From IMG/VR virus record IMGVR_UViG_3300000553_000015: a stretch of 23,310 nucleotides of DNA. One strand, 5' to 3'. Position 1 is the stretch's first letter; the number at the start of each line of letters is the position of its first letter. The position numbers and the translations under genes were made by a program. A model generated the notes under the pieces. It was not told where the DNA came from, searched no databases, and saw only the letters and a list, made by a program, of their open reading frames with translations. The stretch comes from a virus (lineage: Duplodnaviria > Heunggongvirae > Uroviricota > Caudoviricetes). This document shows, piece by piece, positions 1,229 to 16,408 of this stretch.

Positions 1229-3283
1229 TTATTTTGTTGTTGCTCGAAGAATTCCATCCCAGTCTTTGGGAAATGAGATATCTTCACCATATGTTTCTAT
1301 TCGTTTAATCATCATATCATAATAGTAGTCAAGTGCACCATTAAAAGAACCTTTTAATTCGAGGCATTCAACTGTTGCTAGCCACCATTGTTGTGATTGA
1401 TAATAATTAAACATTTTATTGTGTTTTAATCGATGTGCGTGTGAACTATTATTTGGTAATATTGTATAGATATCTAACCCAATAGTTTTTCCTTTAACTG
1501 CTATATCATCCAGTTTAATAACAAAATAATCATTCTCTACAAGTTTAGCAGTTGTGGGGCCAATTATTAATAATACACCATAACCTTTGGTTTGTCCTTC
1601 TAATCTAGCAGCAGTTGATACTGAATCACCAAGTACATCATACCCAAACCTTGCTTTAGACCCAATATTTCCGATTAATGTTGGTCCAGTATTAACACCA
1701 GCTCCCATACCAATTTTGGGTTTACCTTGTCGTACTAATTGCTCATTAAATTTGTCAACGGCTTCGATCATTTCTAAAGCAGTTCTTACCGCATTCTTAG
1801 CGTGGTATTTATCATCTAATGGTGCCCCATGTACATGTAAACTGGCATCACCTATGAATTTTATTAAACACCCATCATTCTTTAATACTGGGTCTGAAAT
1901 AGCAGTCATATAGTCATTCATGATTTTAGTTAACCCTTCTACATCTTCCCCATATGATTCCCCAAGAGTTGTAAACCCTCTTAGGTCTGTCATCACTATA
2001 GACAGCTCTTTCTTTTCGCCACCAAGTTTAATTAACTCTGGATTCTTCTGAAGTCTTTCAACCATTACAGGTGACACATAACTTCCAAATTGTTTCTTGA
2101 TTTGTTGTTTTTGTAAAAATTCATTTACAAATTTAATTCCATATGCATGTAAAGCAACCAAAATAATACCGCTAACTAGTGCAGTGATATCTAAAAGATA
2201 CAGATATTCTGTAAAAGCAAACCTACTTCCAATAACAATACACATTATGATAATGAAAGTGCTTGCTAACCCAACATATACCCATCTTGTTAAAATTAGT
2301 AAAAGTAAACATGAAAATAGTAGAATCCCTTCTTCAGCGGTATCTGCCCAAAACGGTCGTTGGATATTCACGTTATTCATCATTGTACTAATTACCGTTG
2401 CTTGCATATCTTGCGGCCAAACACTACCAATACTTGTAGGAACTGGGTTACCTAGTCCAGCAGCACTTGTACCCACGATTACTATAGCACCATCAAAATC
2501 ATCAGGTAAATGTTCTAAACTAAGTGATTTATGTTGTTGACTCCAATCTATCCATATACGTCCTAAGTTATCTGTGCTTATAGTACCAAACTCAGGAATA
2601 CGCATTTTATCAACACCAAATTCATTCAATTTTACTTGAAATGTTGATACACCTGATGCAACTCTAAGTGCTTCAATTGCAATACTAGGATACAGTTTTT
2701 CATTTACTGATACAACTAGCGGCATACGTCTATTAACACCATCAATTTCTGGTAATGTATTTGTTGTTCCTACACCAGCAGCATTCATTTCTAATGATTC
2801 TATATTTGCAATCAATCCAGGATATTGCACAATTCTATCTAAGTATTCTGAACCAATAACTACACTTCCTGGTGTTTTTGGTAAATTTTTAAATTGCTGA
2901 GACGGAACATTGCTTAACACAACAGGAAATTCTGATAAGTATTTTGCAAGTTGGGAATCTTGTCCACTACGATCCTTATCTGGCATAAGAACATTCCAAA
3001 CAACTAGACCTGCATTTTTAGAATATAAATCATTAATAATTTTTGCATACTCACCACGTGGGAATGGCCATTGACCATATTTGTTTAATGATTCTTCATC
3101 AATATTTACAGTAACAACACTATTTTCGGTTGGGTGTTTATTTGCTATTAATGTGTCAAAATATCTTAATCTAATTGATTCTACAAATGTCGGGTCTGAT
3201 ATTCTTATAACTAAGATTATTGCTAGTGTAATTAACGCTGTCCACACACTTGTTGCTATTTTTCTAAGGATCTGTTTGGTCAT
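1229..3283 (-). CDS. CHASE2-domain class III adenylate/guanylate cyclase
   Basis: N-terminal TM; CHASE2 (VVTVNIDEESL..YGQWPFPR, EIDGVNRRMPL); three TM helices; cyclase motifs SIVMTDLRGFT, KFIGDA, GVNTG..LIGNIGS...YDVLGDSVSTAARLE. K and D specificity residues suggest ATP. Confidence 0.92.
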   Translation of the reverse strand: MTKQILRKIATSVWTALITLAIILVIRISDPTFVESIRLRYFDTLIANKHPTENSVVTVNIDEESLNKYGQWPFPRGEYAKIINDLYSKNAGLVVWNVLMPDKDRSGQDSQLAKYLSEFPVVLSNVPSQQFKNLPKTPGSVVIGSEYLDRIVQYPGLIANIESLEMNAAGVGTTNTLPEIDGVNRRMPLVVSVNEKLYPSIAIEALRVASGVSTFQVKLNEFGVDKMRIPEFGTISTDNLGRIWIDWSQQHKSLSLEHLPDDFDGAIVIVGTSAAGLGNPVPTSIGSVWPQDMQATVISTMMNNVNIQRPFWADTAEEGILLFSCLLLLILTRWVYVGLASTFIIIMCIVIGSRFAFTEYLYLLDITALVSGIILVALHAYGIKFVNEFLQKQQIKKQFGSYVSPVMVERLQKNPELIKLGGEKKELSIVMTDLRGFTTLGESYGEDVEGLTKIMNDYMTAISDPVLKNDGCLIKFIGDASLHVHGAPLDDKYHAKNAVRTALEMIEAVDKFNEQLVRQGKPKIGMGAGVNTGPTLIGNIGSKARFGYDVLGDSVSTAARLEGQTKGYGVLLIIGPTTAKLVENDYFVIKLDDIAVKGKTIGLDIYTILPNNSSHAHRLKHNKMFNYYQSQQWWLATVECLELKGSFNGALDYYYDMMIKRIETYGEDISFPKDWDGILRATTK

Positions 3284-3485: not shown

Positions 3486-4505
3486 TTATTTTGTTTGCAT
3501 ATCTATTAGATTATCTTTAAAAATCTTCCAACAATTGTCCCAAGTCCATTTACTACTTGCATTATACACAATATCTCTATCTAAAGTTAAACATGATTCA
3601 ACACTAAATGATAGATCATCAGACATATGTCCAGTAACATTCTGTTCTAAAATATCAATAGGACCTGGAACAGGATATGCAGCAACTGGCGTTCCTACAC
3701 TCAAACTTTCAATGATAACTATACCAAACGTATCAGTTCTACTAGTAAACACAAAGACATCTGATTTAGCAAAATATTTTGCTAAATCACTTCCAGTTTT
3801 TGAGCCAACAAACCATACATTTTTATATTTCTTTTTTAGCTCTTCTAGGTATGGGCCATCACCAACTACTATTTTAGACACGTTTTTATAGTTTGGTAAT
3901 ACTAACTGACAGAAATCATCTAGACCTTTTTCTTTACTTACACGACCAACACTTAATAGTATTATTTCTTTATCTGAAAACTTTTTATTTTCATCACGTT
4001 TAAAAATAGTTCGATCAACACCACGTGTCCATGGTATGATATCACCATTAAACCCATGTGCTTTTAAATCATCGACCATTGTTTTAGTAGTTGTTAGCAC
4101 TTTACCAGAATGCTTATGAAACCATCTTACATAAGAATATGTAATATTTTCTGGAATATTATATAACTTTTTTAGAAATTCTGGAAATTTTGTATGATAT
4201 GCTGATGAAAAATTTATATTATGTTTCTTGCACCAAAAAAGAACGGCTAATCCAAGTGGTCCTTCTGTCGCAATATGAATATAATCTGGGTTAATTGCTT
4301 TGATTTTTTTATCAATCTGCCACGGAATACTTATTTTTACTTCTGGGTATCCAAATGCTGGAAAATTGAAGAACATATCTGGAAAGATATATTTTACAAT
4401 ATATCCATTTGTTAGTGCGTGTTTTTCTATATTTTTATAAGTAGTAACTACACCGTTGATCTGGTTATGTGAATTATCTGTGACTATCAATATTGTTTTT
4501 TTCAT
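3486..4505 (-). CDS. GT4 glycosyltransferase, Agt-like (glycosyl-diacylglycerol synthase family)
   Basis: ILIVTD...QINGVVTT, YPEVK, PDYIHIATEGPLG, AYHTKFPE, VGRVSKEKG, DVFVFTSRTDTFGIVIIESLSVGTPVAAYPVPGP (D-x7-E GT4 motif). Confidence 0.88.
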   Translation of the reverse strand: MKKTILIVTDNSHNQINGVVTTYKNIEKHALTNGYIVKYIFPDMFFNFPAFGYPEVKISIPWQIDKKIKAINPDYIHIATEGPLGLAVLFWCKKHNINFSSAYHTKFPEFLKKLYNIPENITYSYVRWFHKHSGKVLTTTKTMVDDLKAHGFNGDIIPWTRGVDRTIFKRDENKKFSDKEIILLSVGRVSKEKGLDDFCQLVLPNYKNVSKIVVGDGPYLEELKKKYKNVWFVGSKTGSDLAKYFAKSDVFVFTSRTDTFGIVIIESLSVGTPVAAYPVPGPIDILEQNVTGHMSDDLSFSVESCLTLDRDIVYNASSKWTWDNCWKIFKDNLIDMQTK

Positions 4506-4506
4506 A

Positions 4507-4674
4507 CTATTTCTTTAAGCAAACATATAGTTCGTTATCCCTGTGATCTTTTGATTTTTGTAATTGTTCCATTGCTACCTTGCATGAATCTTGAGAACTA
4601 AATTCACCGATTGGTTGCCAAAATAGACTAGTACCCAATGCTGCAACTGCTTGTAATGCTACTAAAATATACAT
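4507..4674 (-). CDS. Small hypothetical protein (55 aa), possibly exported
   Basis: Not in the ORF track. MYILVALQAVAALGTSLFWQPIGEFSSQDSCKVAMEQLQKSKDHRDNELYVCLKK; AAGGA RBS; TAG at 4507-4509 lies 1 nt before the GT4 ATG. Confidence 0.65.
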   Translation of the reverse strand: MYILVALQAVAALGTSLFWQPIGEFSSQDSCKVAMEQLQKSKDHRDNELYVCLKK

Positions 4675-4726
4675 AAGTTATTCCTTTATATTATTATAAT
4701 GGTGTAATATACGGCCATATATCATG

Positions 4727-5479
4727 TTATTCTTGAATTGAAGTCCAGTATATTATTTCAAATGACCCATCATGATTTTCAACTAATGCAGATAACGATT
4801 CAACCCAATCTCCATCATTCATGATTATAATACCATCTATATCTTTTATAACAGGGGTGTGTGTATGCCCTGCTATGACACCATCAAACCCTCGTTTTTT
4901 ACAATAGTTTGCCAATGTTACTTCAAACTGAAACAAAAAGTCAACCGCTGATTTAACTTTGTGTTTAAGGTATTTACTTAAACTCCAATAACCAAATCCT
5001 AATTTATGTCTAATCCAATTAAATTTGTTGTTAACCGCTAATATTAAATCATAACCTTTATCACCTAAAAATCCAAGCCATGGTGCAATTTTACTAATCC
5101 CATCAAATAGATCGCCGTGAGTAACAAGATATCTTTTACCATCTACCCCAATATGTTCTGCTTGATTATGAATTGAAATTTTACCAAATGAAATGCCAAG
5201 ACCAATCATTGGACGTAGAAATTCATCGTGATTTCCAGCTACATAGATTACTTTTGTACCATGCTTTGCAATACCTAGTATTCTACGAACCACATTGGAA
5301 TGACTTTGCTTCCACTTGAGTTTATTTTGTTGAATCTTCCATCCATCTATGATATCTCCTATTAGGTATAGGGTCTCACAAGAATTATGTTTTAGAAAAT
5401 TATTTAGTTGATCTGCTTTGCAATCACGAGTTCCAAGATGAACGTCGCTAATAAAAATAGTGCGATATGTTTTATTCAT
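4727..5479 (-). CDS. Calcineurin-like metallophosphoesterase, PlcP/LpxH-like (probable phospholipase C)
   Basis: YRTIFISDVHLGT..CKA, LYLIGDIIDGW, YVAGNHDE, HGDLFD, GHTH, NDGDWVES. The pattern matches PlcP-type enzymes, and the gene neighbours an Agt-like GT4. Confidence 0.82.
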   Translation of the reverse strand: MNKTYRTIFISDVHLGTRDCKADQLNNFLKHNSCETLYLIGDIIDGWKIQQNKLKWKQSHSNVVRRILGIAKHGTKVIYVAGNHDEFLRPMIGLGISFGKISIHNQAEHIGVDGKRYLVTHGDLFDGISKIAPWLGFLGDKGYDLILAVNNKFNWIRHKLGFGYWSLSKYLKHKVKSAVDFLFQFEVTLANYCKKRGFDGVIAGHTHTPVIKDIDGIIIMNDGDWVESLSALVENHDGSFEIIYWTSIQE

Positions 5480-5482
5480 AAA

Positions 5483-5491
5483 GTATTTATC
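5483..5491 (-). promoter_or_regulatory. Late-promoter-like motif GATAAATAC
   Basis: One mismatch to T4 late consensus TATAAATA, 3 nt upstream of the phosphoesterase ATG; no SD present. Confidence 0.4.
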
Positions 5492-5522
5492 GCACTATTT
5501 TTAAAAATATATTAAATTTATG

Positions 5523-5681
5523 TTACAGTTTTACGATTGTCCAACGGGCTGAAAATGGTTTATTTTTTTCTTTATGTTTTAATATTTTTTTATATTCTTC
5601 TATTCTTAATGAATATAATTTTTCATTATCACCAGTTAGACAAGCATTTAAAACTTCTTTTACAAGTTTCTTTTGTTTCAT
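5523..5681 (-). CDS. Small basic hypothetical protein (52 aa)
   Basis: Not in the track. MKQKKLVKEVLNACLTGDNEKLYSLRIEEYKKILKHKEKNKPFSARWTIVKL with GGAG RBS. Confidence 0.65.
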   Translation of the reverse strand: MKQKKLVKEVLNACLTGDNEKLYSLRIEEYKKILKHKEKNKPFSARWTIVKL

Positions 5682-5704: not shown

Positions 5705-6577
5705 TTAGTTTAATTTGCTTTCTATAAAAGAAACAATAGCACCTGCAACATCGGTATTACAATATTTTTCAAAACCACTAAATCCTGGGTTTGAGTTGGC
5801 TTCACATACTCTAAATCCTCGTGAATCAAACAGTAAATCTATACCTGCTATATCTAATTTTAGTATATTAGCAGCATTTACAGCTATTTCAGCTATTTCT
5901 GGGGTTATTTCAAATGATTCACCAGTTCCACCATTTGTAATGTTAGCACGGAAATCTCCATCAGGTGCAGTTCTTTTCATAGCACCTAGAACTTTCCCAC
6001 CTATGACCAATACTCTTAAGTCTTCACCAGGTCTTTCACCAATATACTCTTGTGCTATTAATACCTTTGTATTATATACAATATTGACAAAATCTACAAA
6101 TCTTCGATAATCTTCTGTGGTATTACATAAATGAACACCTTCACCAAAACTTCCAACTACTACTTTTATAATACATGGAAATCCAATATGTTCATTTACA
6201 AGATCATTTGTTATTGGGTGTTTTACTATTATTGTTGTAGGAACCGCAATACCGGCTTTACTTAATATTTCACCTGAATGAAATTTATCTTGAACTATGT
6301 TAATACTATCACTTGAATTAAAACATGGTATATTAGATAGTTCAAAATATCTTACAACTGATAGATCTTTTCTGCCGATACCAGCACCTACCCTTACTAG
6401 AATTGCTTTTGGTAATTCAAGTTTTTCACCATCATAGTAAATACCATCGTTAATTATGATATCAATTTTTTCAAAATAACAAACTTTAGCGACAATTTCT
6501 TTCTCTTCAAACTTTTCGATTAGCTTTGTTGTTTCATATTCGTGTTTACTTTGTTTAGCTAAAATTATAACTGACAT
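5705..6577 (-). CDS. RimK-family ATP-grasp ligase
   Basis: QDKF...L..AGIAVPTT, GFPCIIKVVVGSFGEGV, IAQEYI, DLRVLVIGGKVLGAMKR, DFRANITNGG, GIDLL, VCEANSNPGF. Confidence 0.88.
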   Translation of the reverse strand: MSVIILAKQSKHEYETTKLIEKFEEKEIVAKVCYFEKIDIIINDGIYYDGEKLELPKAILVRVGAGIGRKDLSVVRYFELSNIPCFNSSDSINIVQDKFHSGEILSKAGIAVPTTIIVKHPITNDLVNEHIGFPCIIKVVVGSFGEGVHLCNTTEDYRRFVDFVNIVYNTKVLIAQEYIGERPGEDLRVLVIGGKVLGAMKRTAPDGDFRANITNGGTGESFEITPEIAEIAVNAANILKLDIAGIDLLFDSRGFRVCEANSNPGFSGFEKYCNTDVAGAIVSFIESKLN

Positions 6578-6602
6578 AAATTCCTTTATATAATGATAAT
6601 TG

Positions 6603-6677
6603 TTAACGGGTATTGATATAGCAGGTTACTTCAAACCCTAATCTAATATCATTGTATGTAGGTGTACTCCAAATCAT
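6603..6677 (-). CDS. pqqA: PqqA, pyrroloquinoline quinone precursor peptide (24 aa)
   Basis: Not in the track. MIWSTPTYNDIRLGFEVTCYINTR fits the PqqA pattern W..P...D.R.G.EVT.Y...R with the E-x3-Y pair. AGGAG RBS 7 nt upstream. Confidence 0.88.
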   Translation of the reverse strand: MIWSTPTYNDIRLGFEVTCYINTR

Positions 6678-6705
6678 AATAATTCTCCTAAATTATCTAA
6701 GTACG

Positions 6706-6714
6706 GTATTTATC
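6706..6714 (-). promoter_or_regulatory. Late-promoter-like motif GATAAATAC upstream of pqqA
   Basis: Same 9-mer as at 5483-5491, located in the intergenic gap. Confidence 0.4.
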
Positions 6715-6735
6715 AAAATTAATATTACAGAAAAA

Positions 6736-7854
6736 TTACTGTCCTTGTTGTACAGAAATTTTAGGACATCCACCGGTTGTAGCACAGTTGAAGTTTATTG
6801 AATATGATTGTTGTAAAGATCCAGCTTGATTTAGACTTAAATCTACTGGTAAACCTGACAACGTGACATTTGCCATATGATTACCAGAGCCTTGTTGTGT
6901 GATATCAACATTTTTATTACCACCACTTAATGTGGTTTCTATATACTGATTGCCATTACCCGATTGATTTGTAATTAATGATGAATTATTACCTATTATA
7001 TTAGCAGAAACTTGTTTACTTCCACCTTCATTTGATTGTGTCAATGATGCGGTATTTGAGTTTCCTATTATATTTAATGTTGCGTAGTTGGTAGAGGTAC
7101 TATTGGATGATGATTGTGTAATGTTTACGGAATTACTGTTACCATTGCCATAATAATTTGCGTAGTTATTTTTAGTACCTGTTTGATTTACGGTTATTGT
7201 ATTTGCAGACCCAATTTGATCAATATAAACCTTACTATCCGATGTTGCTCTATTGATATAGGATTGGATATTGGCATTATCAAATACATTTATAGTAAAT
7301 GGCGATGATGATGCACCACAACATACTGGTGGAACAAATACATTAACAGATGTTCCTAAGTTTGTAAATGGAACAACCGCTATGCCACCAATATCCCAGT
7401 CAAGTTGTATAACAGCCCCACCACCATTTTCATAATACCAAACATCCATGGTATATATTTGCCCTGAAGTAAGTAATATACTACCAGAACTATTATAATT
7501 TGCCGGACCTTGTTCTATCCAGTTATTGATTACAGTGGTACCATTTATAGTCATATAAAATCCATCATCACTACGATCATAAAATGTTACATTTTTCAAA
7601 CCAGTGTTTGTAGCACCGGGCCACAGAATATATCCAGTAAAGTGTATTAAAACCCCATCGGATAATCCACTATTCATAACAACTCCAGAACCCCAATCAT
7701 AGTTTAACGTATTAGCAACTCCAGATGCTAAGACTGTTCTGTTAGTTGTCATTGATGGTGTTGCACCACCTGCTGCATATACTGTATAATTTAATCCAGC
7801 AATATCAACTGCGTAAACATTAAAACTCAATAAAAATAAAATGATATATCTCAT
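6736..7854 (-). CDS. Secreted PA14-domain / curlin-repeat fusion protein
   Basis: Signal peptide; PA14 motifs (HFTGYI, SDDGFYMTING..VINNW, YYENGGGAVIQLDW); C-terminal N/Q/G-rich repeats (VYIDQIGSANTITVNQTG, GNSNSVNITQS, GNSNTASLTQS, NVDITQQGSGNH). Confidence 0.82.
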   Translation of the reverse strand: MRYIILFLLSFNVYAVDIAGLNYTVYAAGGATPSMTTNRTVLASGVANTLNYDWGSGVVMNSGLSDGVLIHFTGYILWPGATNTGLKNVTFYDRSDDGFYMTINGTTVINNWIEQGPANYNSSGSILLTSGQIYTMDVWYYENGGGAVIQLDWDIGGIAVVPFTNLGTSVNVFVPPVCCGASSSPFTINVFDNANIQSYINRATSDSKVYIDQIGSANTITVNQTGTKNNYANYYGNGNSNSVNITQSSSNSTSTNYATLNIIGNSNTASLTQSNEGGSKQVSANIIGNNSSLITNQSGNGNQYIETTLSGGNKNVDITQQGSGNHMANVTLSGLPVDLSLNQAGSLQQSYSINFNCATTGGCPKISVQQGQ

Positions 7855-8936
7855 TGTTTTGGTACTCCTGGATTTTGAATAATTGTAACAATATTTCCAC
7901 CAGGAGTACCAGTACCTATAACTGCTGCCCCCGGACTATAGTTTTGTGTAATAAATACTGATGTGTTTGATGCAAAGCCAAATGTTTTTACTTCTGCGTA
8001 ATCTTGTGAACCTAATACCCTAAATGCAATACCTTTTCCTTTACCTTGTGTATCAGTTGCTGCTGAATTTTCCCATGAAATACATACATTAGTAGTTGGG
8101 TCACACCCATTCTCATTTGCTTCACGTATTAATGAAAGTAATCTTGCTTCGGAATCTTGTGTATTTTTGGAAACTTGATTAACTAACCTTCTAGCCATTT
8201 CCTCTTCCATTGCTTGAACTTCTTTATCTTTTGGTGATTTACTGGACTCCTTGACTACCTTTTGCACTTCCAGTGGTTTGACTAGAATAAGGTTATTTGA
8301 AATCTTTGATTCTATTATGTTAACAGTTGTTGGTAGACTGGGTGACATTGTTGCACTTTGGACATATGTAGCTTCATATGCTTTATCTAATGATACGGTA
8401 CCAGCAAGTGTCGTAACATCTATTTTACCTACTGCGCATATATTTTCTTGAAGTTCGTACTGTTTGATATCTTTTTTATCTTTACAACTTGGTACTAATA
8501 CTATTAAAGACTGACCAGCTTCATCTACAGTCATTGTGAAATCTGTACCTCTAACTGCAATAGTAGCTGTAGGTGTTTTTATTCCAACTTGCTGTGGATT
8601 ATTTTTAGCAATTTGCCCAGATGCATACCTTACTGTACCCATACCTACTTTTAAAGCAAGTTTTCCAGCATCTGATTGTTTTGGGTCAAACACAAAATCA
8701 TCTATTAATAATCTACTATTTTCATTTACTTTGACGTTTGTATCATCTTTGAATTTTATATCAGCAACACAACCACCGGTAATATAAGTGTCCATACTTT
8801 CTATTGAAGCACCTTTATTACCTGGTAGTTTTTGTTTATTACGTTCTATTTGGCAGGATATTCCTTTAGTTTCTCCCACTGAGCCAATATCAGCCCATAC
8901 ATTAGAAGAAACCAACATGAATATAATCCACCACAT
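7851..8936 (-). CDS. Exported FecR-domain protein
   Basis: Signal peptide; FecR core (DTYITG, IKFKDDTNVKVNENSRLLID, G.VRYASG, IKTPTATIAVRGTDF). Confidence 0.85.
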   Translation of the reverse strand: MWWIIFMLVSSNVWADIGSVGETKGISCQIERNKQKLPGNKGASIESMDTYITGGCVADIKFKDDTNVKVNENSRLLIDDFVFDPKQSDAGKLALKVGMGTVRYASGQIAKNNPQQVGIKTPTATIAVRGTDFTMTVDEAGQSLIVLVPSCKDKKDIKQYELQENICAVGKIDVTTLAGTVSLDKAYEATYVQSATMSPSLPTTVNIIESKISNNLILVKPLEVQKVVKESSKSPKDKEVQAMEEEMARRLVNQVSKNTQDSEARLLSLIREANENGCDPTTNVCISWENSAATDTQGKGKGIAFRVLGSQDYAEVKTFGFASNTSVFITQNYSPGAAVIGTGTPGGNIVTIIQNPGVPKQ

Positions 8937-8937
8937 A

Positions 8938-9723
8938 TTATCTTGCTATTGCTGATTGTGGGCTCACTATGGTTGCAGAACTTGTTCTAACAGTAACGGT
9001 ATTGAAGTCACCTTGAGTTAATATATTAACGTTAGTATTGTTTGCACCTTGTTGTTGGGTGTATATAACATTACTACTTCCAGTAATATTCTCAACTAAA
9101 GAATGAACACCAACATCATTTTGTTGTGTGTTTATAATGTTGCTATTACCTGAAATATTAATAGTACTATTATCGCTAGAACCTGCTATTCCAGAAGTAC
9201 TAGTTATATTTTGTGTAACTTGGTTGAAGTTACCAGATGCTGATAAGAAACTGGTAATATAGTTACCTATTAAATTTTGTAATGATAAGTTGCTATCACC
9301 TGTTATTAATTCGGTAATAGTATTATAGTTATTAGATGGATTTCCTTGACTACCAACTGTTAATGATGTTTGGTTACTACTTCCAGTAATGGTACTAGTA
9401 TACATATTGTTACCACCTAGGATATTATATTGCGCCCAATCGTTATTACCATGTTGTGTAATGTTTAGAATATTGCTACTACCTGTAACGGTTCCATAGT
9501 TCAATGCACTTGCTGCTACTGGTGTAACCGATGTAACACCAGCTGAATCAACCGAAATAGTTCCAGATGTTCCACCAACGGTGTTAGTTCCACCTACTTG
9601 TTCAACATTAATAGTATTTGATGTTCCTATTTGTTCTATATAAACATTATTTGGTCCAGTTGATATTCCAACTCCAAATGCTGTTTGTGATAGAAATGTT
9701 GTTAATAAAAGATATTTTTTCAT
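8938..9723 (-). CDS. Curlin-repeat (CsgA/CsgB-like) secreted protein
   Basis: Signal peptide; repeats such as NNVYIEQIGTSNTINVEQVG, SNILNITQHGNND, GNSNIINTQQ, GSSNVIYTQQQG, NILTQGDFNTV. Lies directly after csgG. Confidence 0.8.
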   Translation of the reverse strand: MKKYLLLTTFLSQTAFGVGISTGPNNVYIEQIGTSNTINVEQVGGTNTVGGTSGTISVDSAGVTSVTPVAASALNYGTVTGSSNILNITQHGNNDWAQYNILGGNNMYTSTITGSSNQTSLTVGSQGNPSNNYNTITELITGDSNLSLQNLIGNYITSFLSASGNFNQVTQNITSTSGIAGSSDNSTINISGNSNIINTQQNDVGVHSLVENITGSSNVIYTQQQGANNTNVNILTQGDFNTVTVRTSSATIVSPQSAIAR

Positions 9724-9728
9724 TGCTC

Positions 9729-10535
9729 CTACCCCTTAAATGCCCAGATTCCTTTTCTAGCACCTTCTTTAATTGTTTCGACAACTGCTGCTTGTATTGC
9801 CTTATTAGTAGCTCTATTAATGCTCTCGTTAATAGAACCGCCTACCTCTGCTTCCACTGCCATTGTTCCGGCATCTATAAATTTAAGTAATCCAACACGA
9901 TCTAAATAACTTAAAACAGTTTTAGTGATTGTAACACTAGTTAATACTTCTCCTGTATTAACCGAAACAGTTCTTAAACTGATAGTTACTGTATCACTTT
10001 GGTATTGTGTATCTGCTCCAATACCAAAGAATCTTACACCTGCTCCACCTGTTATTGTATTAGAATCATATCCTACGATTGACCCTTCTACTATAATACC
10101 AGCAAATGTCATAGCAGGCAATGATATTGCATCTTTACCTTGAAATTGTTCACGCATTTGACGAATCATTTGACGTTCTTTAATCAAATTCTCTAATCCA
10201 ACACGTTCTACAACTTTAAACCACACACCATTACCAGCATCTTGTAATGCTTTAATCAAGTATCCTTCACCACCTTGAGTAACAGCAGAACTTAAACTGG
10301 CAATTCCAGTTATTGATTTACGTTGACCAGTTTTATCCATAAAACCATATACTGCAACAGGAACAGGTCCACCAACTGGCGGTTTTAATTGATTTTCTTC
10401 TTTTTTAAGGTATGTGCTAATACTTTCATTTACCGGATCATCAAACTGTTCACCAGTTAATAACTTATGTATAGAACTACCTGTTGCACATCCTTGTAAT
10501 AATGTTATTGCACATAATATAATAATCTTTTTCAT
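9729..10535 (-). CDS. csgG: Curli secretion channel lipoprotein CsgG
   Basis: Lipobox LLQGC; VAVYGFMDKTGQRK, LSSAVTQG, WFKVVERVGLENLIKERQMIR, IIVEGSIVGYD, LRTVSVNTGEVL. Confidence 0.92.
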   Translation of the reverse strand: MKKIIILCAITLLQGCATGSSIHKLLTGEQFDDPVNESISTYLKKEENQLKPPVGGPVPVAVYGFMDKTGQRKSITGIASLSSAVTQGGEGYLIKALQDAGNGVWFKVVERVGLENLIKERQMIRQMREQFQGKDAISLPAMTFAGIIVEGSIVGYDSNTITGGAGVRFFGIGADTQYQSDTVTISLRTVSVNTGEVLTSVTITKTVLSYLDRVGLLKFIDAGTMAVEAEVGGSINESINRATNKAIQAAVVETIKEGARKGIWAFKG

Positions 10536-10537
10536 AG

Positions 10538-11023
10538 CTAAAAATAAAATGTCCCCGCTGGTACTGAAATTTGTGTGGTTTGACTAGGATTTGAGTTGTT
10601 GGTAATATTAATTAAAATCATACCATTATTTGAACCACTTCCTAATCCCCAGGTTACCGTATTCCCACCAAGATCTGGAATTGTTCCACAGACTGTACCT
10701 GGTGTAGTACATGTTGGATTTCCAGTCCCACCAAAAATACTATTTGTTAGTTGTTGAGCCAGTTGTGAATAAATTCTAGATTGTAAATTTGCTATAAATT
10801 GTGCCTGTGGTGTATTTGCAGCTGCAGCCTCAGCTTGTTGTTTTATGGCAGCAGCAGCTGCTTGATTCTGTGATGTCGCTTGGTTTTCTAACTGCTGAAT
10901 AGTTAATATATGTGAACTATAGCCAGCACCACTGAATGATGGACTATTAAATCCAAATTGTATTTCGGCAGCAAAAGATGGCATAGCTGCTAAAAATAAT
11001 ATAAAACCTACTATTTTACTCAT
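10538..11023 (-). CDS. csgF: Curli assembly factor CsgF-like
   Basis: Signal peptide then FGFNSPSFSG (CsgF F.NP.FGG-like), QFIANLQSRIYSQL, TTQISVP; adjacent to csgG. Confidence 0.78.
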   Translation of the reverse strand: MSKIVGFILFLAAMPSFAAEIQFGFNSPSFSGAGYSSHILTIQQLENQATSQNQAAAAAIKQQAEAAAANTPQAQFIANLQSRIYSQLAQQLTNSIFGGTGNPTCTTPGTVCGTIPDLGGNTVTWGLGSGSNNGMILINITNNSNPSQTTQISVPAGTFYF

Positions 11024-11079: not shown

Positions 11080-11754
11080 TTAACTAGATGGGAATAGACA
11101 GTTATTAATATATTCTACTGCTTCTTCTTCTGACAATCCTAACATCATCAATACTTTAGGATTGTGTGGGTTAAGACGTTGATTTTCAACATAATATTTA
11201 TGTTTATTTGAAATATCATCGCTTGTGTTGTTTGTATCAGATAACGATGCTAGATATACGTCTAATGTATCTGCTATCATATCAGATATTTGCGTTAGCT
11301 CTTCATCTGATTGTACGTTACCAGCAGCAATAATATCATTTGAAAATATACGTTGTGCCCATTCTGGTAATTCACGTTTCTTATTCCAAGATAACTTTGC
11401 AGATTCATTTGCAAACCATTCTGATAACGGATGATTATCTGATACTGGACTAAAATCATGAAAACAACCTGTGATTTTATTCTTACCAGCAAATACATCA
11501 AACCCAAATATTGGAGCAGGATTATGAAAATGTGGATAAATGCAACAATGCATCATCCACAACCCACGAGTATCTATTGCATCAATAATATTGACATGTG
11601 CTTTTCTATATAAATCAGATTCCCAGGTTAGATTACTCCAACCTGGCTTGTTAAACTGAACAGCTTCTGGTATATGAATTTCTTCACCTGAATGATCAAA
11701 TTTATATTTAAATAGCTGACTTATATCAATAAGCGACATTTGAATGTTATTCAT
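11080..11754 (-). CDS. Ferredoxin-dependent bilin reductase (PcyA/PcyX type)
   Basis: YRKAHV, LWMMHCCIYP, PIFGFDVFAG, FHDFSP, RELPEWAQRIFS, YVENQRLNPH. Start uncertain (11754 or 11739). Confidence 0.85.
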   Translation of the reverse strand: MNNIQMSLIDISQLFKYKFDHSGEEIHIPEAVQFNKPGWSNLTWESDLYRKAHVNIIDAIDTRGLWMMHCCIYPHFHNPAPIFGFDVFAGKNKITGCFHDFSPVSDNHPLSEWFANESAKLSWNKKRELPEWAQRIFSNDIIAAGNVQSDEELTQISDMIADTLDVYLASLSDTNNTSDDISNKHKYYVENQRLNPHNPKVLMMLGLSEEEAVEYINNCLFPSS

Positions 11755-12061
11755 CAATAGGTAGCCATGCCCACGATTTTATTATATTCTTAATACTAGG
11801 TCTTCGCCTAAATAACCATATTTTACGATGTGGTCTTGTTTTTACAATAAAATCATATGGATCCATCTGCGTAACTACTTTAGAAAATGGTGATTCTATT
11901 CTAATATACCATCCATCATTTTGTGTGCCAATTACGTCTGATGAATACACGTGCTTGCTATACGGTTGATATTTGACTTTTATAGATTTACCAAATGATA
12001 ATAGAACATTTGAAACATATGGTTCACCTTGAATATTTGTTTTTATCTTAATTAGTTTCAT
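11747..12061 (-). CDS. Hypothetical protein between heme oxygenase and bilin reductase
   Basis: 104-aa ORF overlapping both neighbours, implying translational coupling; no family recognised. Confidence 0.6.
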   Translation of the reverse strand: MKLIKIKTNIQGEPYVSNVLLSFGKSIKVKYQPYSKHVYSSDVIGTQNDGWYIRIESPFSKVVTQMDPYDFIVKTRPHRKIWLFRRRPSIKNIIKSWAWLPIDE

Positions 12062-12590
12062 CCAATGCCTTCATGATTTTTATAGCCCATTCAAATGCTA
12101 CTCTAGCTTCATCTCCTAAATCATCAGTTAATTCTGCTCTAATAGCATTTCGTAGACCTTCAACATCTTCAAATTGATAGAACTTACCAGAACCTGGAAC
12201 AGTCTTAGCGATATATTGCCCACCATTCAATGTCCCTAGGTGATGAACATATAAATGAGCTTTTATTAAATGCTTACGTTCTAAATCGTTGATTAAATCT
12301 TGCAGATATCTAATATATTCCAATGTTTCTTGTGTCCACGTGTAATGAATCTCTTTATCAGCTAATTCAAGAAAATCTTGATAGATATATTTTGTTCTAT
12401 CAATACCAGATAATTTAGAAAAAAATCCCTGAACTTGCGCTCCAAATTCAATAGTGGAATATATTGGGATCATTTGCCACAAATAGTTTATATATAATTC
12501 TCTTGGTAATTTTCCTGAAATGATTAATTTCATAAAATCAGTTTGTTCAGCTTGTGTATGTAAATCTTTAGTGATTTCGCGTAATGACAT
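12048..12590 (-). CDS. Heme oxygenase
   Basis: MSLREITKDLHTQAE (proximal His helix), AHLYVHHLGTLNGGQ (distal helix), EARVAFEWAIKIM; AAGGA RBS. Confidence 0.88.
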   Translation of the reverse strand: MSLREITKDLHTQAEQTDFMKLIISGKLPRELYINYLWQMIPIYSTIEFGAQVQGFFSKLSGIDRTKYIYQDFLELADKEIHYTWTQETLEYIRYLQDLINDLERKHLIKAHLYVHHLGTLNGGQYIAKTVPGSGKFYQFEDVEGLRNAIRAELTDDLGDEARVAFEWAIKIMKALDETN

Positions 12591-13587: not shown

Positions 13588-13890
13588 TTATTCAGATTGT
13601 TCAATTTTGATCTGTAATGGAAAACCATTTTCTCTTGCAAGTTTTGTCGCTTCTACTGCTTTAATTTCTGCAATTTCAAAATCATAAAATCCAGCAATAC
13701 CAGATCCAGATTCGTGGACTTGTAATGTAACATTTGTTGCGGAATCCATTGAATGTTTAAATATTTCAATAAGCATAGCAATTACAAAATCAATTGGTGT
13801 ATGATCATCATTGATTATGATAACTTTCCATCGTTTTGGTTCTGACACTTTAATACTTACTTTTTCTTCGGTGATAACATCTGTTGACAT
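13588..13890 (-). CDS. clpS: ATP-dependent Clp protease adaptor ClpS
   Basis: EPKRWKVIIINDDHTPIDFVIAMLIEIF, VHESGSGIAG, EIAEIK, ARENGFPL. Confidence 0.92.
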   Translation of the reverse strand: MSTDVITEEKVSIKVSEPKRWKVIIINDDHTPIDFVIAMLIEIFKHSMDSATNVTLQVHESGSGIAGFYDFEIAEIKAVEATKLARENGFPLQIKIEQSE

Positions 13891-13908
13891 ATTGTTTTCC
13901 TTTAATGT

Positions 13909-13926
13909 GGGGGAGTTTCCTCCCCC
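13909..13926 (-). other. GC-rich hairpin between hsp20 and clpS
   Basis: GGGGGAG-GAAA-CTCCCCC on the minus strand; no U-tract, so more likely a stability/processing element than a terminator. Confidence 0.45.
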
Positions 13927-13937
13927 TGGTGATAAAA

Positions 13938-14363
13938 TTATTTAATTTCTATTTGACGAGGTTTATGTGCCTCTGGCACTACGTATTCTACTGAAATTTT
14001 TAACATTCCGTCTTTAACTACTGCACCTCTAACTTCCATAAATTCTACTAATGGAAATTCGGTTACAAAATTTCTAGCAGCTAATCCACGATGAATAAAT
14101 TCAGTACCTTCTGGTAATGATGTATCATGTTCTCCTCTAATAGTGATAATATTTTGGTCAACTTCGATAGAAATATCTTCTCTACTAAACCCAGCCACTG
14201 CTAGTTCAATAGCGTAATCTGTTTCAGTATATCTTATGATATTATGAGGTGGATAGTTTGATTGTGGTGAATTAGTTCTGGCATTTACCATTCTATCAAA
14301 CCCTACTAGTGCTTTACTTAAATTAGCAAGTTCTGCTGCAGTTATTGTTCTTAATTGTGTCAT
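13938..14363 (-). CDS. Small heat shock protein (Hsp20/IbpA-like)
   Basis: NYPPHNII, YAIELAVAGFSREDISI, FIHRGLAARNF, GAVVKDGMLKI, PEAHKPRQIEIK. Confidence 0.93.
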   Translation of the reverse strand: MTQLRTITAAELANLSKALVGFDRMVNARTNSPQSNYPPHNIIRYTETDYAIELAVAGFSREDISIEVDQNIITIRGEHDTSLPEGTEFIHRGLAARNFVTEFPLVEFMEVRGAVVKDGMLKISVEYVVPEAHKPRQIEIK

Positions 14364-14371
14364 TTTATTTT

Positions 14372-14424
14372 CTCCTTATATTAAGCAAGATGTTCATAAT
14401 ACCCAAATGGCATACTATGAACAT
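14372..14424 (-). promoter_or_regulatory. ROSE-like RNA thermometer in hsp20 leader
   Basis: CUUGCUU (14383-14389) pairs with SD AAGGAG (14372-14377) with a bulged G; 12-bp hairpin upstream at 14390-14424. Confidence 0.65.
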
Positions 14425-14452
14425 ATTATATCACATTTTTCTTAAATGTCAA
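14425..14452 (-). promoter_or_regulatory. sigma70 promoter TTGACA-N16-TATAAT (with extended -10 TGn)
   Basis: -35 at 14447-14452 overlaps the dnaK stop; -10 at 14425-14430; faces hsp20. Confidence 0.6.
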
Positions 14453-16341
14453 ACTTCAGTGAATTCAGCATCCAACGGTTCGTCAGAATTAGCTTCTGAT
14501 GATGTTTGTTTAGCTTGTTCAGCTTCTTGTTTTTTTGCAAATACTGGACTTGCTGCTTCATACAATTTTGTTACTGAATTGGTAATTGCCTCAACATCAT
14601 CACCTTTGGTAGCTTCTTCAACTTTAGATAATGCTGATTCAAACGCTAGTTTTTCATCATCTGATAATTGGTCAGCAACTTCATCAAAGTCTTTTTCTAA
14701 TGAATGTTTTTGAGCATCGGCATTATTACGAGCTTCAATTAGTTCTTTAGCTTTTTTATCAGCATCTGCATTTGCTTCGGCATCTTTTATCATTTGTTCA
14801 ATTTCAGATTCACTTAATCCAGAATCAGATTTAATGGTAATATTATTTTTCTTACCAGTACCTTTATCTTGTGCTGATATATGCATAATACCATTAGCAT
14901 CAATATCAAAGGTTACTTCAATTTGTGGAACGCCACGACGAGCTGGTTCAATACCTTCCAAATTAAATTCACCTAATTGTTTGTTATATTGATATAACTC
15001 ACGTTCACCTTGCCCAACTTTAATATTTACTGCAGGTTGGTTGTCATCCGCAGTTGAGAATACTTGACTAGCTTTTGTAGGGATCGTAGTATTCTTTTGA
15101 ATGATTTTGGTAAACACACCACCCATTGTTTCAATACCCAATGACAATGGTGTAACATCCAATAATAATACGTCAGTTTTATCACCTGACAATACTGCAC
15201 CTTGGACCGCAGCACCAGCCGCAACTGCTTCATCTGGGTTAACATCTTTACGTGGTGCTTTGCCAAATAGTTTTTCAACTGCTTCTTGTACTTTGGGCAT
15301 ACGTGTTTGACCACCAACTAAAATAATTTCATCAATATCTGATAATTTTACTTTAGCGTCTTTAATAGCAATTTTACATGGGGCAATACTTCTTTCAATT
15401 AAATCTTCTACTAATGCTTCAAATTTAGCACGAGTTAATTTAACATTCAAATGTTTTGGACCACTTGCATCTGCTGTTAGGTATGGTAGATTAACGTCTG
15501 TTTGTTCAGCTGATGATAATTCAATTTTAGCTTTTTCAGCTGCTTCTTTTAAACGTTGCAATGCTAATGTATCATTTTTAAGATCAACACCACTATCTTT
15601 CTTAAATTCAGTTACTAAGAAATCCATGATACGTTGATCGAAATCTTCACCACCTAAGAATGTATCACCATTAGTTGATAATACTTCAATTTGTTTCTCA
15701 CCATCTATGTTTGAGATTTCAATGATAGAGATATCAAATGTACCACCACCTAAGTCATAAACAGCAACTTTGCTATCTATATTATCTTTTTTATCAACAC
15801 CAAATGCTAATGCAGCAGCAGTAGGTTCATTGATGATACGCAATACTTCTAGCCCAGCAATACGGCCAGCATCTTTAGTTGCTTGTCTTTGTGAATCATT
15901 GAAATATGCAGGAACTGTGATAACAGCTTGTGATACAGAATATCCTAAATAATCTTCTGCAGTTTTCTTCATTTTACGAAGAACTTCGGCTGATATTTGT
16001 GGTGGGGCTAATTTCTCACCATTTGCTTCGACCCAAGCATCTCCATTATCTGCTTCCAGAATAGTGTATGGCATTAAGTCTATGTCTTTTTGAACTGCGT
16101 CTTCAGCAAATTTACGACCAATCAAACGCTTTGCAGCATAGATTGTATTTTTTGGATTAGTTACTGATTGACGTTTTGCTGCAGCACCAACTAAAACTTC
16201 ATTGTCAGTGTATGCTATGATAGAAGGCGTTGTTCTTGTACCTTCTGAATTTTCGATTACTTTTGCTGAACCATTTTCTAAAATAGCTACGCAAGAATTT
16301 GTAGTACCTAAATCGATACCGATGACTGTATTTTTACTCAT
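14449..16341 (-). CDS. dnaK: Molecular chaperone DnaK (Hsp70)
   Basis: [72 protein letters not shown]. Start set at MSKNT (16341, AAGGAG RBS) rather than the track's 16401. Confidence 0.97.
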
Positions 16342-16349
16342 AATATTTT

Positions 16350-16408
16350 CTCCTTTTATTAAGCGAGGTGTTATTGGCATTATGCCATATATTAAACCCA
16401 ATTGGCAT
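16350..16408 (-). promoter_or_regulatory. ROSE-like RNA thermometer in dnaK leader
   Basis: CUCGCUU (16361-16367) pairs with AAGGAG (16350-16355) with a bulged G; upstream AUGCCA/UGGCAU stem. Confidence 0.6.

What the first reader, a model, noticed from the sequence alone, without database searches (positions are those of the whole stretch)
6603..6677. Stand-alone pqqA: a phage supplying only the precursor peptide of the redox cofactor PQQ
Seen: a 24-codon ORF below the track's cutoff, MIWSTPTYNDIRLGFEVTCYINTR, with a strong RBS, its own late-like promoter, and no pqqBCDE in the window. Known: the Glu and Tyr of PqqA's E-x3-Y motif are cross-linked by PqqE/PqqD and excised, so PqqA is consumed stoichiometrically while the enzymes are catalytic. 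Inference: the phage tops up the one short-lived component so that host PQQ dehydrogenases (methanol, alcohol, glucose) keep supplying energy. This is a RiPP-precursor auxiliary gene and points to a PQQ-dependent, possibly methylotrophic or methanotrophic, host.
Basis: partly seen in the sequence, partly recalled or inferred. Interest (0 to 1): 0.85.

Follow-up and report, generated by a model that had tools for sequence, protein, structure and literature searches.

The report
Phage-borne PQQ precursor gene pqqA
A large freshwater phage carries a genuine 24-codon copy of pqqA, the small peptide that bacteria use up to make the redox cofactor PQQ, but this kind of lone viral gene was already reported in 2020 and is common, so the case is real but ordinary.

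Summary
The ORF exists, on the MINUS strand (6677 down to 6603). It passes both curated PqqA models (TIGR02107 39.4 bits, cut-off 20; PF08042 32.7 bits, cut-off 21.1). It keeps the Glu-x3-Tyr pair and the W-x-x-P leader.

The contig is a fragment (about 11% by CheckV) of a roughly 340-kb freshwater tailed phage. I found no pqqB, C, D or E in the 38 kb held.

The claimed own late-like promoter is not supported. The adjacent RimK ligase is a chance neighbour. The closest relative has the same curlin-rimK synteny without pqqA, so pqqA is a 133-nt cassette that is gained and lost.

They also sit, mostly unannotated, in cultured phages of methylotrophs. Coutinho et al. 2020 already reported viral PqqA, and this scan has noted it on other DNA many times (86 notes, at least 72 genomes).

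The peptide is of a gammaproteobacterial type. The host is unknown, and a methylotroph or methanotroph is possible but not indicated.

Most likely function (inferred, untested): it supplies extra precursor to the host's PQQ pathway. Verdict: a new member of a known kind, of low to moderate interest.

The parts
6603..6677 (-). pqqA: 24 codons plus TAA stop. Trp3 and Pro6 lie in the leader; Glu16 and Tyr20 form the E-x3-Y pair that becomes PQQ.
   Evidence: Translation; TIGR02107 39.4 bits and PF08042 32.7 bits, both above the curated cut-offs; 17/22 identical to operon-linked bacterial PqqA.
6685..6689 (-). Shine-Dalgarno AGGAG, 7 nt upstream of the ATG.
   Evidence: Read directly from the sequence. 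The same AGGAG/AAGGA site precedes nearly all of the 120 viral pqqA copies.
6603..6735 (-). 133-nt cassette (58-nt leader plus pqqA) inserted directly behind the stop of the PA14/curlin-repeat gene. It is absent from the closest relative.
   Evidence: Alignment with L005 shows conserved flanks and a 134-column gap covering exactly this stretch. In run X20 the abundant variant has a spacer of about 88 nt by length arithmetic, too short for the ORF.
6578..6602 (-). 25-nt spacer carrying the rimK ribosome site. It has no terminator, so pqqA and rimK are probably co-transcribed.
   Evidence: It aligns with the 27-nt curlin-rimK spacer of L005. No terminator-like site was found.
5705..6577 (-). RimK-family ATP-grasp alpha-L-glutamate ligase. 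It is the downstream neighbour and not a conserved partner of pqqA.
   Evidence: TIGR00768 227.8 bits. Of 69 viral RimK loci only L024 has pqqA nearby, and none of the other 120 pqqA loci has RimK.
6736..7854 (-). PA14 / curlin-repeat protein gene, the upstream neighbour. It is the last gene of the csgF-csgG-...-fecR-curlin block, whose transcript probably reads into pqqA.
   Evidence: Pfam PA14 and Curlin_rpt; same synteny in L005.

Best explanation
This is a functional, phage-borne copy of pqqA carried as an auxiliary gene. During infection the 24-residue peptide is translated from its own ribosome site, probably on a transcript shared with the upstream curli-like genes and the downstream rimK. 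The host's own PqqD/PqqE would then recognise it through the W-x-x-P leader and cross-link Glu16 to Tyr20. Host PqqF/B/C would trim and oxidise it to PQQ. Each PQQ molecule consumes one PqqA while the enzymes turn over, so extra precursor would sustain or raise the PQQ supply for periplasmic quinoprotein dehydrogenases (methanol/ethanol/glucose type), and so energy supply, while the phage replicates. Shown: gene identity, intactness, ribosome site, stand-alone status, viral context, presence/absence polymorphism, and purifying selection on the viral family. Inferred: translation, processing by host enzymes, and benefit to the phage.
For: Both curated PqqA models are passed. The peptide is 17/22 identical to bacterial PqqA copies that sit directly upstream of pqqB or pqqC. 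The viral nature of the contig is supported. No pqqB-E is in the 38-kb record, and no pqqD or pqqE is in related viral contigs up to 200 kb. At least 120 IMG/VR contigs carry an in-register 23-25-codon pqqA with a ribosome site, next to phage recombination, lysis, capsid and replication genes. Across that family there are 111 distinct DNA sequences but only 52 distinct peptides. Third-codon-position entropy is about twice that of positions 1 and 2 at codons the search pattern left free, and the stop is in register in 120 of 122 copies. Cultured phages of methylotrophs carry it too, for example an unannotated copy in Melnitz. The literature proposes the same role (PMC7678222). The DNA recurs in freshwater metagenomes of 17 studies from 2012 to 2023, with pqqA letter-identical in two independent runs.
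Against: There is no expression data; no RNA run was listed. The host is unknown, so its pqqB-E genes are assumed. Only about 11% of the phage genome is held. The gene is dispensable: the nearest relative and an abundant lake variant lack it. The residue between Thr and Tyr is Cys here, where 109 of 111 viral copies have Met or Leu; the effect of this is unknown. No experiment anywhere has shown that a viral PqqA is converted to PQQ.
Confidence: 0.75

Rival explanations
1. pqqA and the adjacent RimK-type glutamate ligase work together. Either the ligase modifies the peptide, or the pair supplies two cofactor-related functions (some RimK-family enzymes glutamylate cofactors such as tetrahydromethanopterin and F420).
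For: The two genes are 25 nt apart on one strand with no terminator. A second viral contig (L024) also has rimK and pqqA about 130 nt apart. Melnitz encodes both genes. The RimK protein gives sub-threshold hits to MptN and CofF.
Against: The gene order is reversed in L024. 68 of 69 viral RimK loci and 119 of 120 other pqqA loci lack the partner within reach. The closest RimK (71% identical, L005) sits in the same synteny with no pqqA. In Melnitz the two genes are about 75 kb apart. The ligase passes only the general RimK family cut-off, not MptN, CofF or the RiPP ATP-grasp maturase models. RimK relatives occur in cyanophages and pelagiphages without pqqA. Earlier notes tie rimK to the PlcP-Agt block instead, and that is its other neighbour here.
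Confidence: 0.05
2. The peptide is a decoy. It is a variant PqqA (with Cys next to the reactive Tyr) that occupies host PqqD/PqqE and lowers, rather than raises, PQQ synthesis, or serves another peptide-level role.
For: The Cys at the x position of E-V-T-x-Y is unique among the 111 distinct viral copies examined. The peptide is also the most divergent of the viral set.
Against: All residues that define PqqA are intact, and the HMM score is high. That position varies among bona fide bacterial PqqA (Met or Leu; from my own knowledge, Ser and others elsewhere). The other viral copies carry the ordinary residue, so no decoy signature is general.
Confidence: 0.05
3. The contig is cellular (or a prophage flank), and pqqA is simply a bacterial orphan copy, with the pqq operon elsewhere in the same chromosome.
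For: Many genes look cellular: DnaK, ClpS, Hsp20, CsgG/CsgF, a CHASE2 cyclase and glycosyltransferases. The DnaK is 64-68% identical to gammaproteobacterial DnaK. Bacteria do carry orphan pqqA copies, 2-8 per genome in some.
Against: The contig has a T4-type long tail fibre gene with an S74 chaperone domain, Nol-type carbamoyltransferase and sulfotransferase PHROGs, and at least three homing endonucleases. The nearest CsgG and RimK clusters are 77-100% viral. CsgG homologues occur in the cultured phages HTVC008M and Melnitz. There is synteny with IMG/VR contigs up to 200 kb, estimated 58% complete.
Confidence: 0.03

Closest known systems
Virus-encoded PqqA of Lake Baikal methylotroph phages (viral population VP_266; Coutinho et al. 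2020, Microbiome 8:163, PMC7678222)
   Same: A lone pqqA on a freshwater viral contig, interpreted as an auxiliary gene that boosts PQQ for host quinoprotein dehydrogenases.
   Different: VP_266 also encodes methanol dehydrogenase and is assigned to Methylophilaceae hosts. This contig shows no such gene in the 38 kb held. It belongs to a much larger phage (about 340 kb) and carries a gammaproteobacterial-type peptide.
Unannotated pqqA of cultured phages of methylotrophs (Melnitz, Venkman, P19250A, MEP301)
   Same: 23-24-codon stand-alone ORF with its own ribosome site. Melnitz also shares CsgG and RimK homologues with this contig.
   Different: Identity to the window's peptide is only 38-54%. 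Those phages are 35-141 kb, and their peptides are of the MWTKPxATEMRFGFEVTMYVMNK type.
Operon-linked bacterial PqqA (TIGR02107 / PF08042) of Gammaproteobacteria
   Same: 17/22 identical core, the same length, and the same W-x-x-P and E-x3-Y spacing.
   Different: The bacterial copies are followed by pqqB or pqqC. The phage copy lies between a curlin-repeat gene and rimK, with no pqq enzyme gene.
Orphan extra pqqA copies in bacterial chromosomes
   Same: A stand-alone precursor gene, presumably adding to the precursor dose. 64 of 400 sampled GTDB Gammaproteobacteria have pqqA, many with 2-8 copies.
   Different: Those are chromosomal and share a cell with the operon. Here the gene travels on a virus and depends on whichever host is infected.

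Membership tests
PqqA (NCBIfam TIGR02107, Pfam PF08042) | Score above the curated cut-off of the family models | tested here: met
   TIGR02107 39.4 bits against cut-off 20; PF08042 32.7 bits against 21.1.
PqqA (NCBIfam TIGR02107, Pfam PF08042) | Short peptide (about 20-40 residues) with conserved Glu and Tyr spaced E-x-x-x-Y, the atoms of PQQ | tested here: met
   24 residues, with Glu16-Val-Thr-Cys-Tyr20.
PqqA (NCBIfam TIGR02107, Pfam PF08042) | N-terminal leader with the W-x-x-P motif at fixed spacing from the core (the part bound by PqqD) | tested here: met
   Trp3 and Pro6 have the same spacing as 120 viral and 73 bacterial copies. Binding itself is not testable here.
PqqA (NCBIfam TIGR02107, Pfam PF08042) | Conversion to PQQ by PqqE/PqqD/PqqB/PqqC | not testable with these tools
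   This needs complementation or an in-vitro assay.
pqqABCDE operon | pqqA adjacent to pqqB-E | tested here: not met
   Neighbours are a PA14/curlin-repeat gene and rimK. No pqqB, C, D or E is in the 37.9-kb record. The models detect pqqB and pqqC in bacterial loci.
Viral auxiliary pqqA (as in Coutinho et al. 2020) | Encoded on a bona fide viral genome | tested here: met
   Tail fibre gene, homing endonucleases, viral protein clusters, IMG/VR record and synteny with large viral contigs.
Viral auxiliary pqqA (as in Coutinho et al. 2020) | Host possesses pqqB-E and PQQ-dependent enzymes | not testable with these tools
   The host is unknown. There is only indirect similarity to gammaproteobacterial PqqA and DnaK.
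ATP-grasp-modified ribosomal peptides (graspetide-type precursor plus maturase) | Ligase belongs to the RiPP ATP-grasp maturase family, and the precursor-ligase pairing is conserved | tested here: not met
   TIGR04187 scores 23 bits against cut-off 350, while RimK family TIGR00768 scores 227.8 bits. The pairing is absent in 68 of 69 RimK loci and in the closest relative.

The most novel reading that the evidence does not exclude
The pqqA and the RimK-type glutamate ligase beside it form a functional pair. For example, the ligase could act on the peptide or on a PQQ-pathway intermediate, or the two genes together could service cofactors of one-carbon oxidation. The adjacency seen twice (window and L024) would then reflect selection rather than chance.
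Probability: 0.04. Interest if true: 0.65.

Novelty: new member of a known kind. Interest (0 to 1): 0.28.

Why it matters
It adds one more lineage, a roughly 340-kb freshwater tailed phage with a gammaproteobacterial-type peptide, to the list of phages that carry only the consumable precursor of a cofactor. It also shows the gene behaving as a 133-nt cassette that is present or absent among very close relatives. That supports two views: precursor supply can limit PQQ synthesis in nature, and gene callers routinely miss this auxiliary gene. It does not open a new question. The idea is published and still lacks an experimental test.

Tried and rejected
1. My first IMG/VR pattern had one N too many and found nothing. 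I rebuilt and verified it in a script and reran it.
2. The search for related loci and the search for homologous proteins both refuse a 24-residue query.
3. I looked for a pqqA-like mini-ORF upstream of the cyanophage S-CAM8 rimK and found none.
4. I searched for DNA similarity of the cassette leader to other pqqA loci. Nothing matched beyond a 41-nt coding core, so the donor cannot be traced.
5. The class-wide genome survey returns unnamed handles, so it could not name host families. I used marker genes instead.
6. My first reading of run X20 (a 308-letter replacement equal to an L005-like junction) was too simple. The contig also matches the first 31 nt of the window's leader. The corrected arithmetic from two independent layings gives a spacer of about 88 nt, which is still too short for pqqA.
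7. No RNA run was listed for the locus.
8. The T4-late-type TATAAATA and sigma-70 promoter readings were rejected.

Full report
OBSERVATION. The plus strand of 6603-6677 has a stop. AGGAG lies at 6689-6685, 7 nt before the ATG. The peptide scores 39.4 bits on NCBIfam TIGR02107 (E 3.8e-10, cut-off 20) and 32.7 bits on Pfam PF08042 (cut-off 21.1). It has the W-x-x-P leader and the Glu-x3-Tyr pair at the spacing found in every other copy I collected. The ORF is therefore real and far beyond chance.

WHAT SURROUNDS IT. On the same strand, 58 nt upstream, a PA14/curlin-repeat gene ends (6736-7854). It is the last gene of a block with FecR-domain, CsgG and CsgF genes. A RimK-family ATP-grasp ligase starts 25 nt downstream (5705-6577; TIGR00768 227.8 bits). 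It is followed by a PlcP-like metallophosphoesterase and a GT4 glycosyltransferase. Further along are a bilin reductase, a heme oxygenase, ClpS, Hsp20, DnaK, homing endonucleases and a large restriction-modification-like protein.

The window is part of a 37.9-kb IMG/VR record that CheckV rates at 11% complete. Its right flank holds sulfotransferases, a Nol-type carbamoyltransferase, glycosyltransferases and a long tail fibre gene with an S74 chaperone domain. Its left flank holds more homing endonucleases and phage-only families.

The CsgG and RimK proteins fall in clusters that are 77-100% viral. The only cultured-phage CsgG relatives are Pelagibacter phage HTVC008M and the OM43 phage Melnitz. 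Related IMG/VR contigs reach 200 kb at an estimated 58% completeness, which implies a genome near 340 kb. The DNA recurs in freshwater metagenomes from 17 studies dated 2012-2023. The contig is thus a fragment of a large freshwater tailed phage, not a bacterial chromosome.

STAND-ALONE STATUS. No pqqB, pqqC, pqqD or pqqE is in the record, and no ORF in it hits those families. Five related viral contigs lack pqqD and pqqE. The pqqB and pqqC models detect their targets strongly next to bacterial pqqA, so the negatives are meaningful. About 300 kb of the phage is unseen.

THE PROMOTER CLAIM. The sigma-70 scan has no hit directly upstream on the minus strand. TATAAATA is absent there (GATAAATA at 6714-6707 is a one-mismatch match) and is not enriched in the window. 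There is no terminator between pqqA and rimK, and the leader does not fold unusually. Co-transcription with the neighbours is more likely than a private promoter.

IS RimK A PARTNER? I fetched 69 viral loci with RimK relatives. Only one, L024, has a pqqA-like ORF within reach, and there it lies downstream of rimK, the reverse order. None of the other 120 viral pqqA loci has RimK nearby.

The closest RimK (L005, 71% identical, on an 88-kb contig) sits in the same FecR / PA14-curlin / RimK synteny, but the curlin stop and the rimK start are only 27 nt apart. The alignment shows conserved flanks and one 134-column gap that covers exactly the 58-nt leader plus pqqA. So pqqA is a 133-nt cassette dropped behind the curlin gene, and rimK keeps its own ribosome-site spacer.

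Laying metagenome contigs shows the cassette letter-identical in two runs (X13, X15). In lake run X20, a 12-kb contig of depth about 106 is about 99% identical over the curlin gene and the first 31 nt of the leader, and about 85% identical over rimK. Two independent layings place its rimK start such that the spacer is only about 88 nt, too short for the ORF. A low-depth contig in the same run does carry the 5' half of pqqA. This is length arithmetic; I did not see the letters.

Earlier notes of this scan report rimK recurring inside the PlcP-Agt block of related phages. That matches its other neighbour here. I conclude the adjacency is incidental, and give a functional link about 5%.

HOW COMMON IS IT? 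tblastn of the peptide against GenBank phages returns ten records. Seven are phages of methylotrophs (four Melnitz isolates, P19250A, Venkman and MEP301). Two are 'Acinetobacter phage MD-2021a' records and one is an uncultured Caudoviricetes. In Melnitz the ORF is unannotated, and an opposite-strand hypothetical is annotated over it.

Every one has an in-register 23-25-codon ORF behind an AGGAG-like site. The neighbours are YqaJ exonuclease, Sak/Erf annealing proteins, endolysin, capsid and replication initiator genes, not pqq enzymes.

Across 120 copies there are 111 distinct DNA sequences but 52 distinct peptides. At codons the pattern left free, third-position entropy is about twice that of positions 1 and 2. 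Phe at the free position before Glu is invariant. The stop is in register in 120 of 122 copies. The family is under purifying selection.

WHAT IS KNOWN. Coutinho et al. 2020 (PMC7678222) reported PqqA on a Lake Baikal viral population, together with methanol dehydrogenase. They proposed that it boosts PQQ for methanol oxidation. A 2026 reservoir virome paper lists pqqA, pqqD and pqqE among viral genes (PMC13188868). The Melnitz paper mentions PQQ only as a medium supplement. This scan has noted phage pqqA before on other DNA: 86 notes in at least 72 genomes, including freshwater jumbo phages. I had reached the same reading independently before consulting those notes.

HOST. The window's peptide is only 38-54% identical to the copies in cultured phages of methylotrophs. 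It is 17/22 identical to PqqA of several uncultured Gammaproteobacteria, Ca. Spongiihabitans and Halomonadaceae, and 15/22 identical to Methylococcales and Cycloclasticus copies. That search pattern was biased to the P-T-Y subtype. Those bacterial copies sit directly upstream of pqqB or pqqC.

In an unbiased sample of 400 GTDB Gammaproteobacteria, 64 have pqqA. One genome in that sample, G049, is flagged unpublished. Its single pqqA copy counts among the 64, and its peptide (L290, 15/22) is in the comparison. No conclusion here depends on it.

The most window-like peptides in that sample (16/22) come from five genomes of 1.7-2.8 Mb, three of which carry several pqqA copies. Four of those five encode full-length PQQ methanol/ethanol-family dehydrogenases. 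None has a RuMP hexulose-phosphate synthase above cut-off.

The phage DnaK is 64-68% identical to gammaproteobacterial DnaK, against about 53% for Firmicutes. So a PQQ-making proteobacterial host is likely, probably within GTDB Gammaproteobacteria. A classical methylotroph or methanotroph is possible but not indicated. A 22-residue peptide cannot settle this.

MECHANISM. Established knowledge of the pathway says that PqqD binds the PqqA leader, the radical-SAM enzyme PqqE links the Glu and Tyr side chains, and proteases, PqqB and PqqC finish PQQ. One peptide is consumed per cofactor. The phage peptide keeps every feature needed for this. I therefore rate 'extra substrate for the host pathway' at 0.75.

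Every step after gene identity is inferred. No RNA run was listed, and no viral PqqA has been tested experimentally. The unusual Cys between Thr and Tyr (Met or Leu in 109 of 111 viral copies) leaves a small chance of a decoy role.

VERDICT. This is a real, correctly read gene on a phage. The private promoter and the specific host guess are unsupported, and the RimK adjacency is incidental. It is a new member of a known kind. Its modest added value is the cassette polymorphism and the extension to a very large freshwater phage with a gammaproteobacterial-type peptide.

Noticed in passing
window 6736-11023 (minus strand): A curli-type secretion block sits in a phage: CsgF, CsgG, an unassigned 261-aa gene, a FecR-domain protein and a PA14/curlin-repeat protein. 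The CsgG falls in mostly viral clusters, and its only cultured-phage relatives are Pelagibacter phage HTVC008M (45% identical) and the OM43 phage Melnitz (41%). The same FecR-curlin synteny is in L005.
   Followed up: partly
L003 4001-4075 (+) = Melnitz MZ577097.1 76134-76208: Melnitz carries a clear 24-codon pqqA that is not annotated. Instead an opposite-strand hypothetical protein (MelnitzEXVC044M_152) is annotated over it.
   Followed up: yes
window 3486-5681 (minus strand): A PlcP-like metallophosphoesterase and a GT4 glycosyltransferase are separated by small ORFs and lie directly downstream of rimK. Earlier notes describe this PlcP-Agt lipid-remodelling pair, often with rimK inserted, in many related large phages.
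   Followed up: no
window 11080-12590 (minus strand): A ferredoxin-dependent bilin reductase and a heme oxygenase flank a 104-aa unknown gene. This pigment-pathway pair is typical of cyanophages, but here it is in a phage whose other genes point to a proteobacterial host.
   Followed up: no
window 13588-16401 (minus strand): A chaperone cluster of ClpS, Hsp20 and a full-length DnaK. The DnaK is 64-68% identical to gammaproteobacterial DnaK.
   Followed up: partly
L024 / L194 / L195 (IMG/VR contig of 94.5 kb, handle G005): This viral contig carries two pqqA copies about 70 kb apart. One lies about 130 nt downstream of a RimK gene.
   Followed up: partly
window 1229-3283 (minus strand): A 684-aa CHASE2 sensor fused to an adenylate/guanylate cyclase domain is encoded on the phage.
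   Followed up: no
GenBank records CAKLQF020000010/29 and CAKLQH020000026/55 ('Acinetobacter phage MD-2021a'): These 'phage' records hold a pqqA-like ORF and a bacterial-type dnaK. They may be bacterial sequence filed as phage.
   Followed up: no
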